A stretch of DNA of 64,000 bases from positions 91,602 to 155,601 of the forward strand of contig JAVVEP010000005.1 in the NCBI GenBank assembly GCA_032250735.1, written 5' to 3'. This DNA comes from Gammaproteobacteria bacterium (lineage in GTDB: Bacteria; Pseudomonadota; Gammaproteobacteria; SZUA-152). The notes beneath the pieces are model-generated. The model saw only the letters and a program-made list of their open reading frames with translations, made no database searches and was not told where the DNA came from. A program made the translations under genes and the position numbers. Positions 32,412-33,993 of this stretch are shown piece after piece; position 1 is the first letter of the stretch, and every line of letters begins with the position of its first letter.

Positions 32412-32974
32412 ATCCTTATTTAAAAAACACTTCGGCGCGGTCGCTGCAACTGCCTGCCCACCGGCGCCAGGCGGGCTTTACCCTGATCGAGACCATCATC
32501 GTCATTGTGCTGGTGGGGGCGATGATGGCGGGCATGACCACCCTGTTCATGAACAATGTCGGCAACAGCCACCGACCCTATCTGCGGCAGAAGGCCCTGT
32601 CGGTGGCCAATGCCTTCATGGATGAGATTCAACGCAAGCGCTGGAACGAGGCGACCCCGCTGGGCGGCGGTTGCGTAAATACCGGCGCCTCCTGTCCCGC
32701 CGGGCCGGCAGTGGTGGCGATCGGCAGCGATGGTGATACGCGCGCCACCTACGATGATATCGATGACTACCATGGCCTCAATCAACGCCCGCCGCAGGAT
32801 TCCTCGGCGACCAACATGCCGGACTACAGCGGTTACACGGTGAGCGTCAGCGTCGTGCAACCGGCGACAAGCTGGAATGGCGTGCCAGCAGCCGATGTGC
32901 GGCTGATTACCGTCAGCGTGACCTCGCCGGGTAATGAGACCATCAGCCTCTCTACCTATCGGGTGAATATCTGA
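32408..32974 (+). CDS. MshD-like minor pilin
   Basis: QAGFTLIETIIVIVLVGAM prepilin motif. 188 aa. Confidence 0.55.
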   Translation: MNPYLKNTSARSLQLPAHRRQAGFTLIETIIVIVLVGAMMAGMTTLFMNNVGNSHRPYLRQKALSVANAFMDEIQRKRWNEATPLGGGCVNTGASCPAGPAVVAIGSDGDTRATYDDIDDYHGLNQRPPQDSSATNMPDYSGYTVSVSVVQPATSWNGVPAADVRLITVSVTSPGNETISLSTYRVNI

Positions 32975-33993
32975 TGGCTGGTTATGGTTATAAGGGGTCT
33001 GACCCCTTTAAAAGAACGATGGCTGGTTATGGTTATAAGGGGTCTGACCCCTTTAAAAGAACGGGGCATGAAAAGACGCAAAGTGGATATAAGGGGTCTG
33101 ACCCCTTTAAGAAGCTTAAGTGTGACCCCTTTAAGTGCTCCTTTAAGTGCTTTAAGAAAGGCAGCAACAGTGGCGGTTTTACCCTGGTGGAGATGGTCAT
33201 GGTGATCGTTCTGTTGGGCATCATCGCCGGGATCCTCACCCCCTTTATCAGCAAGGCAATGCAGGCCTATACCCACAGCAAGGCGCGGGCCAGTCTGGTG
33301 GACAAGGGCCGGCTGGCGCTGGAACGCCTGGCGCGCGAGGTGCATCAGGCCGTGCCCAACAGCCTGTCGGTGTTGGCGGGCGGCACGGGCATCGAGTTTG
33401 TACGCAGCCGGGCGGGCGGGCGTTACGTGGAACGCTTTGATGATTTTGGCACCGAGTTTTCACGTATCAATCGTCGCTTTCGCAAGAACGCCAACCTCAC
33501 CGAACTCTACGTGGTGGGCACCGGACTGACTGTCGCGGCCAACGAGGTGCTGGTGATTGGCAACACCTCGCCCGCGGACCTGCAGGCGGGCAACACGGCG
33601 ACGACCCTCACGGGGATTGCCGCGACCAGCGCCGTGGGGCCGGGCAACGACGGTACCGCCAATGGCCAGATCCTGAATTTTGGCAGTCACCAGTTTGCAG
33701 TGGAGTCTCCCGGCCGGCACTTTTCCATCGCCGACAGGACCATCGAGGTCGGCCTGAGCGGCGACCGTCTGCGCTGGTTCAGCGCCAGCGGCCTGAGCGA
33801 TTACGACGGGGCCGTGGACTGGAGTAGTGCTGATCCGGCCCTGGTGGACGGCGTCTCGTCGGTGAGCTTCGTGTATGCGCCGGGCAATCCGCAGTCCACT
33901 GGGGTGCTGCGGGTGGACCTGCAACTCACCGATGCCACCACCGGGCAGCCCATCCGGCTGTATCGCGAGATCCAGGTGAGGAACACACCATGA
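32974..33993 (+). CDS. MshO-like minor pilin with an unusually long repeat-encoded leader
   Basis: The prepilin motif GGFTLVEMVMVIVLLGII appears only at about residue 60. The 5' 180 nt consist of a tandem 45-bp duplication and hairpin repeats, with no alternative in-frame start. Confidence 0.5.
   Translation: MAGYGYKGSDPFKRTMAGYGYKGSDPFKRTGHEKTQSGYKGSDPFKKLKCDPFKCSFKCFKKGSNSGGFTLVEMVMVIVLLGIIAGILTPFISKAMQAYTHSKARASLVDKGRLALERLAREVHQAVPNSLSVLAGGTGIEFVRSRAGGRYVERFDDFGTEFSRINRRFRKNANLTELYVVGTGLTVAANEVLVIGNTSPADLQAGNTATTLTGIAATSAVGPGNDGTANGQILNFGSHQFAVESPGRHFSIADRTIEVGLSGDRLRWFSASGLSDYDGAVDWSSADPALVDGVSSVSFVYAPGNPQSTGVLRVDLQLTDATTGQPIRLYREIQVRNTP

What the first reader, a model, noticed from the sequence alone, without database searches (positions are those of the whole stretch)
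32974..33180. Tandem 45-bp duplication containing the start codon plus three copies of a hairpin (aaggggtctgacccctt) inside the 5' end of the MshO-like pilin gene
Seen in sequence: atggctggttatggttataaggggtctgacccctttaaaagaacg occurs twice in perfect tandem (32974-33018 and 33019-33063). A third, diverged copy and further ctttaag fragments follow, and each copy carries a 6-bp stem / 5-nt loop hairpin (32992-33008, 33038-33054, 33091-33107). The first ATG overlaps the stop of the upstream gene (ATGA).
The only in-frame starts are these two ATGs, so the prepilin motif GGFTLVEM is preceded by a leader of 44-59 residues; typical prepilin leaders are 6-25 residues. Each unit encodes GYKGSDPFKRT.
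Inference: a repetitive extragenic palindromic (REP)-like element may have expanded into the gene's 5' end. Alternatively this is a translational regulatory structure (hairpins occluding initiation) or a phase-variable region.
Basis: seen in the sequence. Interest (0 to 1): 0.6.

Follow-up and report, generated by a model that had tools for sequence, protein, structure and literature searches.

The report
Hairpin repeats lengthening a pilin leader
A short palindromic DNA hairpin has been copied several times, always in frame, inside the disposable leader-peptide part of a minor pilin gene (mshO), giving a 53-68-residue leader instead of about 10; it is a tolerated piece of repeat DNA, not a new machine.

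Summary
There is a perfect 45-bp tandem duplication at 32974-33063. There are three copies of AAGGGGTCTGACCCCTT plus decayed half-copies, in a 45% GC island within a 62% GC operon. Three details are wrong:
- The stop/start overlap is TGATG, not ATGA.
- The second hairpin is at 33037-33053.
- The leader is 68 residues from ATG 32974, or 53 from ATG 33019. It is not 44-59.

The closest orthologue (95% identical) has 29 nt where the window has about 190 nt. About 110 of 120 orthologues have leaders of 8-16 residues.

All repeat spacings (45, 54, 24, 12, 9) are multiples of 3. No other start codon, canonical or near-cognate, lies before GG|FTLVEM. The mature part shows dN/dS of 0.12. So the array is most likely translated and then removed by prepilin peptidase.

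The same spot in other orthologues carries three different palindromic elements. Two of them (seven orthologues) are in frame. So the leader-coding segment of this gap-free operon acts as a tolerant landing pad.

The hairpin is not dispersed in the window or in related loci. Similar hairpins are intergenic, locally amplifying elements in other Proteobacteria. A regulatory role is possible but was not tested.

The parts
32408..32974 (+). mshD-like minor pilin gene (GspI/PilV class). Its TGA stop (32972-32974) shares one base with the mshO ATG.
   Evidence: ORF list. Pfam N_methyl at residues 19-43. NCBI protein MDT8383718.1. The same stop/start abutment is seen in all orthologous loci.
32974..33018 (+). 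Repeat unit 1 (45 bp). It contains the conserved, translationally coupled start ATG (32974-32976) and hairpin 1 (32992-33008). It encodes MAGYGYKGSDPFKRT.
   Evidence: An ATG at the mshD stop is the start in every orthologue examined.
33019..33063 (+). Repeat unit 2, a perfect copy of unit 1. It carries a second in-frame ATG (33019-33021) and hairpin 2 (33037-33053). NCBI's annotation starts the protein here (324 aa).
   Evidence: Exact-sequence look-up finds MDT8383719.1.
33064..33117 (+). Repeat unit 3 (54 bp). Its 5' part has diverged. Hairpin 3 (33091-33107) is identical to the others. It encodes GHEKTQSGYKGSDPFKKL.
33118..33156 (+). Decayed partial copies of the 3' arm: GTGTGACCCCTTTAAG (33120-33135), CCTTTAAGTGCT twice (33128-33151), and TTTAAG (33151-33156). 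They encode KCDPFKCSFKCFK.
   Evidence: All TTTAAR motifs are in phase 0, with spacings of 45, 54, 24, 12 and 9.
33157..33177 (+). Probable ancestral end of the leader (KGSNSGG), ending in the Gly at position -1. Prepilin peptidase would cut between 33177 and 33178.
   Evidence: Alignment with the orthologue L001 resumes at CAGTGG, 33168. The class III signal-peptide rule is described in PMC10191384.
33178..33993 (+). Mature MshO (GspJ/PilW-class minor pilin), 271 aa, beginning FTLVEM, plus its stop codon.
   Evidence: 167 homologues were found, several named MshO by JGI. It is 95% identical to P0001. dN/dS is 0.12 with dS 0.26. The MshO = GspJ/PilW equivalence comes from PMC13533445.
33990..34409 (+). 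mshP-like gene, overlapping the end of mshO by 4 nt.
   Evidence: ORF list. Synteny in L008, L011 and L012. NCBI protein MDT8383720.1.

Best explanation
This is an in-frame expansion of a short palindromic hairpin inside the leader-peptide-coding segment of the minor pilin gene mshO. About 160 extra nucleotides lie between the conserved start ATG, which abuts the mshD stop, and the conserved ...SGG|FTLVEM cleavage motif.

The extra DNA grew by successive local tandem or slippage duplications of a hairpin unit (core ATAAGGGGTCTGACCCCTTTAA). The newest event is the perfect 45-bp duplication, which also copied the start codon.

The operon has no intergenic gaps. The class III leader stays in the cytoplasm and is cut off by prepilin peptidase. 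So this is the one place where such DNA can sit without damaging the mature protein, provided it keeps the frame and has no stop codon.

Translation most likely starts at 32974, coupled to mshD termination, and possibly also at 33019. That yields a very basic leader of 68 or 53 residues, which is removed to give normal mature MshO.

What is shown: the anatomy, the insertion relative to orthologues, frame preservation, and the uniqueness of the peptide. What is inferred: the start-site usage, the processing, and the slippage mechanism.
For: 1. The closest orthologue (P0001/L001, 95% identical) has a 14-residue leader. The DNA aligns on both sides of the array and has 29 nt in its place.
2. Of 120 orthologues, about 110 have leaders of 8-16 residues.
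3. The six TTTAAR motifs are all in phase 0, and the five spacings (45, 54, 24, 12, 9) are all multiples of 3. If the duplications were unconstrained this would have a probability of about (1/3)^5 = 0.4%.
4. There is no alternative canonical or near-cognate start downstream of 33019.
5. The mature part has dN/dS of 0.12.
6. The leader has 15 Lys/Arg against 5 Asp/Glu and no hydrophobic stretch. This fits the positive-inside, cytoplasmic, variable-length leader described in PMC10191384.
7. The leader peptide shares no words with any of 5.8 billion proteins.
8. The same site has repeatedly taken in other palindromic elements:
   - Six orthologues carry a GTCATTCCGGCG...CGCCGGAATGAC element exactly 35 nt after the ATG. 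Its length differences are +18, +60 and +63 nt, and the mshO frame has no stop in any of the six; in five of them it is the only forward frame without one (L008 also has none in frame +2). That element is dispersed intergenically on the same contigs.
   - L041 carries a third element in frame.
9. The same hairpin type shows local copy-number change and 3'-arm partial duplication at orthologous intergenic sites in unrelated taxa: L018 against L006 and L016, and L021 against L028.
Against: - There is no expression, start-site or processing data.
- Leaders of 53-68 residues are far beyond the lengths I know to have been characterised for prepilins, so processing efficiency is unknown.
- Frame +2 of the array is also free of stops. 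An open frame alone is therefore weak evidence. The phase argument carries the weight.
- The survey of relatives has an ascertainment bias. Out-of-frame insertions would have been called as truncated genes. At most two such candidates were seen, P0063 and P0099, and P0063 is at a contig edge.
- The source is a metagenome-assembled genome, so the exact copy number was not verified against reads.
Confidence: 0.6

Rival explanations
1. The hairpin array is a selected cis-regulatory RNA element. It would act like a REP hairpin at an internal operon junction. It could stabilise the upstream mshA...mshD mRNA segment against 3' exonucleases, slow ribosomes, or weaken coupled initiation. The result would be lower MshO/MshP output relative to upstream genes. 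This does not exclude the array also being translated.
For: - The region folds much better than shuffled sequence: -90.8 kcal/mol, z = -4.0, 0 of 200 shuffles as good.
- Hairpin 1 starts 17 nt after the mshD stop and 18 nt after the A of the ATG.
- Four different palindromic elements sit at this same gene junction in different lineages.
- From my own knowledge, REP hairpins can stabilise upstream mRNA and can affect translation of the upstream gene when they lie close to its stop codon.
Against: - Recurrence is equally well explained by tolerance, since this is the only non-essential DNA in a gap-free operon.
- About 110 of 120 orthologues do without any element.
- The hairpins are identical copies, so no covariation test is possible.
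- There is no Rfam family match.
- The scan did not score them as intrinsic terminators.
Confidence: 0.15
2. The insertion has inactivated or is inactivating mshO. The long leader blocks membrane targeting or peptidase cleavage, and the open frame is a leftover of a very recent event.
For: - The leader is four to seven times longer than in nearly all orthologues.
- The perfect duplication is evolutionarily young.
- The dN/dS value integrates the whole divergence from L001, not only the time since the insertion.
Against: - At least five successive duplication events all kept the frame.
- The third unit has already diverged (67% identity over 45 nt), so the array is not brand new.
- Orthologues with 48-70-residue element-bearing leaders have kept intact frames across 67-85% protein divergence.
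- The downstream mshP still overlaps mshO, and the operon is intact.
Confidence: 0.12
3. The array is a copy-number-variable (phase or contingency) locus. Gain and loss of 45-bp units would tune leader length or expression between cells.
For: - A perfect tandem duplication is the substrate for slippage.
- Copy number of the same hairpin differs at orthologous sites in other taxa.
Against: - Units are multiples of 3, so no on/off frame switch is possible.
- There are only two perfect copies.
- No population data are available.
Confidence: 0.05
4. The 45-bp duplication is an assembly artefact of the metagenome-assembled genome. The true sequence would then have one unit, giving the 53-residue leader that NCBI annotates.
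For: The source is a MAG contig. The duplication is perfect.
Against: - Short-read assemblers tend to collapse tandem repeats rather than create them.
- A 90-bp array is shorter than a typical read.
- Even without the duplication, the remaining array (units 2 and 3 plus the fragments) is still present.
Confidence: 0.05

Closest known systems
Rickettsia palindromic elements (RPEs): palindromic selfish DNA inserted in frame in protein-coding genes (Ogata et al. 2000, as summarised in PMC10969869)
   Same: Palindromic repeat DNA lies inside an ORF, is read through in frame, adds a peptide with no homologues, and leaves the host protein apparently functional.
   Different: - RPEs are about 150-bp members of dispersed families, and they sit in mature parts of unrelated metabolic proteins.
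- Here the unit is a 17-32-nt hairpin amplified locally.
- It was not found elsewhere in the available genome sequence.
- It sits in a segment that is proteolytically removed.
REP/BIME elements of Gammaproteobacteria
   Same: A short GC-rich imperfect palindrome with AT-rich flanks, occurring in tandem clusters at a gene junction inside an operon. Similar hairpins are multi-copy and intergenic in other Proteobacteria (L002 has about four in 8 kb, L033 has three in 2.7 kb).
   Different: - It is intragenic and translated.
- It has no GTAG-type head.
- There is no dispersal in the 64-kb window or in 77 kb of related loci.
- All copies are direct, not in alternating orientation.
The GTCATTCCGGCG...CGCCGGAATGAC palindromic element found in frame in the mshO leaders of six orthologues (loci L007, L008, L010, L011, L012, L014)
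   Same: Same gene and same segment (leader coding, downstream of the ATG that abuts the mshD stop). It is in frame and gives 48-70-residue leaders.
   Different: - The sequence family is unrelated.
- It is about 70 nt long with 27-nt inverted arms.
- It is demonstrably dispersed in intergenic regions of the same contigs.
- It is a single copy with nested insertions, not a tandem array.
Long-leader type IV pilins (T4b pilins; Streptococcus sanguinis major pilins), PMC10191384
   Same: A class III signal peptide with an unusually long hydrophilic leader ending in Gly, expected to be processed by prepilin peptidase.
   Different: To my knowledge those leaders are roughly 15-30 residues and are lineage-typical. 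Here the leader is 53-68 residues, made of repeat DNA, and private to one genome.

Membership tests
Type IV prepilin (class III signal peptide) | Hydrophilic leader ending in Gly or Ala, followed by about 20 hydrophobic residues, with Phe/Met at +1 and Glu at +5 | tested here: met
   The sequence reads ...KKGSNSGG|FTLVEMVMVIVLLGIIAGIL. Pfam N_methyl matches residues 64-88, E = 4.9e-6. The definition is from PMC10191384.
Type IV prepilin (class III signal peptide) | Leader length in the usual range (about 5-30 residues) | tested here: not met
   The leader is 68 or 53 residues. Orthologues have 8-16. PMC10191384 says length is variable, so this is not an absolute criterion.
MshO (GspJ/PilW-class minor pilin of MSHA-type pili) | Sequence homology to MshO, and mshD-mshO-mshP synteny with an MshQ-like large protein nearby | tested here: met
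   167 homologues were found, with E-values down to 1e-162, several named MshO by JGI. The neighbours are N_methyl pilins and a DUF6701 protein. Synteny holds in L008, L011 and L012. The role table is in PMC13533445.
REP (repetitive extragenic palindromic) element | Short imperfect palindrome able to form a stem-loop | tested here: met
   AAGGGG-TCTGA-CCCCTT forms a 6-7-bp stem.
REP (repetitive extragenic palindromic) element | Many dispersed copies in the same genome | tested here: not met
   Zero copies outside 32992-33135 in the 64-kb window, with up to 2-3 mismatches allowed. Zero copies in 77 kb of related loci. The rest of the 168-kb contig and of the MAG could not be read.
REP (repetitive extragenic palindromic) element | Extragenic location | tested here: not met
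   It lies inside the only possible reading frame of mshO.
REP (repetitive extragenic palindromic) element | Conserved GTAG-type 5' head and a cognate RAYT transposase | not tested
   By eye, no GTAG is adjacent to the stems. The window was not screened for a RAYT gene.
MITE | Terminal inverted repeats and target-site duplication, unit about 100-400 bp | tested here: not met
   Units are direct repeats of 45, 54, 24 and 12 nt. No terminal inverted repeats bound the 190-nt block and no target-site duplication is present.
In-frame intragenic palindromic element (RPE-like phenomenon) | Palindromic repeat inside an ORF that preserves frame and downstream protein | tested here: met
Intrinsic (Rho-independent) terminator | GC-rich hairpin followed by a run of T | tested here: not met
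   The consensus scan did not report it. Only TTT follows the stem.
Phase-variable simple-sequence contingency locus | Repeat whose copy-number change shifts the frame or changes promoter spacing | tested here: not met
   All units are multiples of 3 and lie inside the ORF.
Known structured RNA family (Rfam 15) | Match at or near the gathering score | tested here: not met
   The best match over the array is 20.6 bits against a 53.1-bit threshold, E = 0.65.

The most novel reading that the evidence does not exclude
Leader-peptide-coding segments of prepilin genes in gap-free pilus operons may be a general safe harbour for palindromic repeat DNA, and the hairpins that lodge there may be co-opted. 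They could act as REP-like mRNA-stability or translation brakes that set the stoichiometry of the tip-complex minor pilins (MshD against MshO/MshP). This would also imply that prepilin peptidase can process leaders of 50-70 residues.
Probability: 0.15. Interest if true: 0.6.

Novelty: new variant of a known kind. Interest (0 to 1): 0.4.

Why it matters
- **Tolerance of the leader.** If the long leader is translated and cleaved, class III signal-peptide leaders tolerate far more length and arbitrary sequence than the roughly 5-30 residues usually quoted. That matters for pilin prediction tools and for start-codon annotation. NCBI and a naive ORF call already disagree here.
- **Where selfish DNA survives.** It gives a clean natural example of where selfish palindromic DNA can persist inside a tightly packed operon.
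- **Recurrence.** The same site has been colonised by at least four unrelated palindromic elements in different lineages.
- **Scope.** It does not reveal a new molecular system.

Tried and rejected
- **Conserved N-terminal domain: rejected.** No protein among 5.8 billion shares even three 5-residue words with the leader.
- **Dispersed REP in this genome: no support.** There are no other copies in the window or in related loci. Scans of genome, metagenome and viral collections gave only single intergenic hits in unrelated taxa. None had the tandem array and none was the source genome.
- **Known RNA family: none**.
- **Terminator: not scored**.
- **Plasmid or phage origin of the 200-nt block: nothing** beyond a 31-nt chance-level hit.
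- **Hidden downstream start codon: none,** including near-cognate codons.
- **Single ancestral origin of the GTCATTCC element: unresolved.** A neighbour-joining tree of the mature proteins scatters the six carriers among short-leader orthologues, yet the insertion point is identical at 35 nt. This means an old insertion with repeated loss, recombination, or site-specific reinsertion.
- **Out-of-frame insertion control: uninformative.** P0063 sits at a contig edge.
- **Exact look-up of the 339-aa ORF failed**. The 324-aa version is the one on record.

Full report
**1. The observation**

The sequence at 32974-33180 is as described in outline.
- Tandem Repeats Finder reports a 45-nt period, 2.0 copies, 100% matches, score 182, at 32973-33063.
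- The 17-mer AAGGGGTCTGACCCCTT occurs three times, at 32992, 33037 and 33091. The chance expectation is 0.12, and 0 of 100 shuffles reach three.
- Downstream lie a 54-nt third unit, a half-copy GTGTGACCCCTTTAAG at 33120, and CCTTTAAGTGCT twice at 33128-33151.
- GC drops to 44-47% over 32950-33200, inside an operon of about 60-70% GC.

Three details need correction.
- The second hairpin is at 33037-33053.
- The upstream stop and the first ATG share one base (TGATG), not four.
- The leader is 68 residues from ATG 32974 or 53 from ATG 33019, up to ...SNSGG|FTLVEM (Pfam N_methyl at residues 64-88).

**2. Context**

The gene belongs to an MSHA-type pilus cluster.

| Coordinates | Gene |
|---|---|
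| 27608 | major pilin-like gene |
| 28084-31956 | DUF6701 / MshQ-like protein, 1290 aa |
| 31956 | GspH-like pilin |
| 32408 | mshD-like minor pilin |
| 32974 | this gene (mshO-like) |
| 33990 | mshP-like gene |
| 34482 | PilM-like gene |

The genes abut or overlap (by 1 nt at 31956 and 32974, by 4 nt at 32408 and 33990), so there is no intergenic DNA.

The protein has 167 homologues, several named MshO. MshD, MshO and MshP correspond to the GspI, GspJ and GspK tip-initiation complex (PMC13533445).

The source is an NCBI metagenome-assembled "Gammaproteobacteria bacterium", on a contig of 168,384 nt. NCBI annotates the 324-aa form that starts at the second ATG (MDT8383719.1). The 339-aa form is not on record.

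**3. The array is extra DNA**

The closest orthologue, P0001/L001, is 95% identical and has the leader MLGDGAPRRKISGG|FTLVEM. Its DNA aligns with the window up to the ATG at the mshD stop and again from CAGTGG (33168). It has 29 nt where the window has about 190.

Among 120 orthologues, about 110 have leaders of 8-16 residues. The leader peptide shares no three 5-residue words with any of 5.8 billion proteins. It is therefore not a conserved domain.

**4. Is it translated?**

- No in-frame ATG, GTG, TTG, CTG or ATH codon lies between 33022 and the Phe codon at 33178. MshO can only be made from 32974 or 33019.
- The ATG that abuts the mshD stop is the start in every orthologous locus examined. 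This points to translational coupling at 32974. The second ATG has no convincing Shine-Dalgarno sequence and exists only because the duplication copied it.
- All six TTTAAR motifs are read in the same phase, as Phe-Lys. The five spacings (45, 54, 24, 12, 9) are all multiples of 3. For unconstrained duplications this has a probability of about 0.4%. Each expansion step therefore seems to have been filtered for keeping the downstream frame, which requires initiation upstream of the array.
- The mature part shows dN/dS of 0.12 at dS 0.26 against L001.
- A caveat: frame +2 of the array is also stop-free. The absence of stops alone is weak evidence.

**5. Why it would be tolerated**

According to PMC10191384, the class III leader is hydrophilic and variable in length. 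[quoted passage not shown]

The window's leader has 15 Lys/Arg against 5 Asp/Glu and no hydrophobic run. It ends in Gly-Gly before FTLVEM. Removal of the leader would give a normal mature MshO. This step is inferred and was not tested.

**6. The same spot has been colonised repeatedly**

- **GTCATTCCGGCG element.** Six orthologues (P0005, P0015, P0019, P0026, P0032, P0044) have 48-70-residue leaders containing a GTCATTCCGGCGNAGGCCGGAATCCAG...CTGGATTCCGGCCTNCGCCGGAATGAC palindrome.
  - It always starts exactly 35 nt after the ATG.
  - Its lengths are 70, 70, 70, 88, 133 and 130 nt, so all differences are multiples of 3.
  - The mshO frame has no stop in any of the six, and in five of them it is the only forward frame without one; L008 also has none in frame +2.
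  - The element is a true dispersed repeat, with further intergenic copies on the same contigs: L008 at 19764, and L012 at 6040, 9057 and 13356.
- **Third element.** L041 (P0111) carries a different palindrome, CCCTCTCCCTCTGGGATAGGG..., in frame.
- **Fourth element.** L042 (P0036) has a GGTGGGCAATGCCCACC-type element between the mshD stop and a retained short-leader start. The ATGTT start sequence is present on both sides of it.
- **Contrast with the mature part.** I saw no palindromic-element insertion in the mature coding region (about 810 nt) of any orthologue I read, whereas eight (window included) carry one in the leader segment of about 30 nt; the mature regions were not systematically scanned.
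- **Ascertainment bias.** Out-of-frame cases would appear as truncated gene calls. At most two candidates were seen (P0063, P0099), and P0063 is at a contig edge.
- **Origin of the six carriers.** They are scattered on a neighbour-joining tree. Their history is unresolved: a single old insertion with losses, recombination, or reinsertion.

**7. What the hairpin is**

Exact 20-22-mers of the core occur in 5 genome, 21 metagenome and 2 viral stretches from unrelated Proteobacteria. Those whose flanks I read directly lie between genes, and the rest sit in AT-rich flanks that look intergenic; gene positions were not checked for each.
- Some contigs hold several copies: L002 has about four variants in 8 kb, and L033 has three in 2.7 kb.
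- Orthologous sites differ in copy number (L018 has two copies, L006 one, L016 one plus fragments). They also differ by a 15-nt tandem duplication of the 3' arm (L021 against L028). Similar partial copies occur in L027 and L038.

That is the same style of growth as in the window.

In the window's own lineage, no other copy exists in the 64 kb or in 77 kb of related msh loci. The data therefore support a small hairpin prone to local slippage amplification. They do not show a dispersed REP family in this genome.

No Rfam family matches. The terminator scan does not score the hairpins. The RNA folds well, as any palindrome array must (z = -4.0).

**8. Verdict**

This is a real, in-frame, locally amplified palindromic repeat inside the cleavable leader of MshO.
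- Best explanation (confidence about 0.6): tolerated repeat DNA that is translated and clipped off.
- Rivals: a REP-like regulatory role at the mshD/mshO junction (0.15, not exclusive); incipient inactivation (0.12); copy-number variability (0.05); an assembly artefact of the last duplication (0.05).
- Closest known phenomenon: in-frame palindromic elements such as the Rickettsia RPEs (PMC10969869). This case differs in being a local hairpin array within a removed segment.
- Novelty: a new variant of a known kind, of moderate interest.

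Noticed in passing
window 33019-33993 versus 32974-33993: NCBI's record (MDT8383719.1, 324 aa) starts MshO at the second, duplicated ATG. The start that is conserved in orthologues and abuts the stop codon is the first ATG, giving 339 aa. The annotation probably misses 15 residues of the leader.
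   Followed up: yes
L007 688-831; L008 10001-10147; L010 581-727; L011 5001-5174; L012 2588-2797; L014 2161-2364: Six mshO orthologues carry a dispersed GTCATTCCGGCG...CGCCGGAATGAC palindromic element in frame, exactly 35 nt after the start codon. It translates as PSFRRRPESS...LDSGLRRNDE. Nested insertions of +18, +60 and +63 nt also keep the frame. The carriers are scattered among short-leader orthologues on a tree.
   Followed up: partly
L041 1501-1614; L042 about 130-300: Two further, unrelated palindromic elements lie at the same junction. CCCTCTCCC...GGGATAGGG is in frame in the leader (L041). A GGTGGGCAATGCCCACC-type element lies between the mshD stop and a retained short-leader start, with ATGTT present on both sides (L042).
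   Followed up: partly
L018 about 4611-4660 versus L006 6619 and L016 4317; L021 3078 versus L028 278; L038 2605-2640; L027 1672: In unrelated Proteobacteria, the same AAGGGGTCTGACCCCTTTAA hairpin shows copy-number differences at orthologous intergenic sites. It also shows tandem partial duplications of the 3' arm (GACCCCTTTAA...). This hairpin type appears intrinsically prone to local amplification.
   Followed up: partly
window 48417-48489 and 49900-50054: A second local repeat family: five copies of AAAGTCAAGCAATGACCCC, some extended by AGACCCTCC. They include a tandem array and an inverted repeat of about 47 nt. They flank a PAS-domain histidine kinase gene (48611-49867) that sits next to a response-regulator/GGDEF gene (47093-48298). 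Chance expectation is 0.02 copies. The family is absent from all fetched loci. Its function is unknown.
   Followed up: partly
window 62926-62984: Three tandem copies of a 20-nt unit, CCAGCGATTTGTCGGATTAA (87% matches), in what looks like an intergenic region. Not examined.
   Followed up: no
window 28084-31956: The MshQ-like (DUF6701, Laminin_G_3, Calx-beta) gene lies upstream of the mshD-O-P genes here and in related loci. In Vibrio cholerae it lies downstream (mshDOPQ, PMC13533445).
   Followed up: no
window 63908-63940: A perfect 15-bp inverted repeat, AAGAAAAAGGGGCGG/CCGCCCCTTTTTCTT, with a 3-nt loop. It looks like a bidirectional terminator.
   Followed up: no
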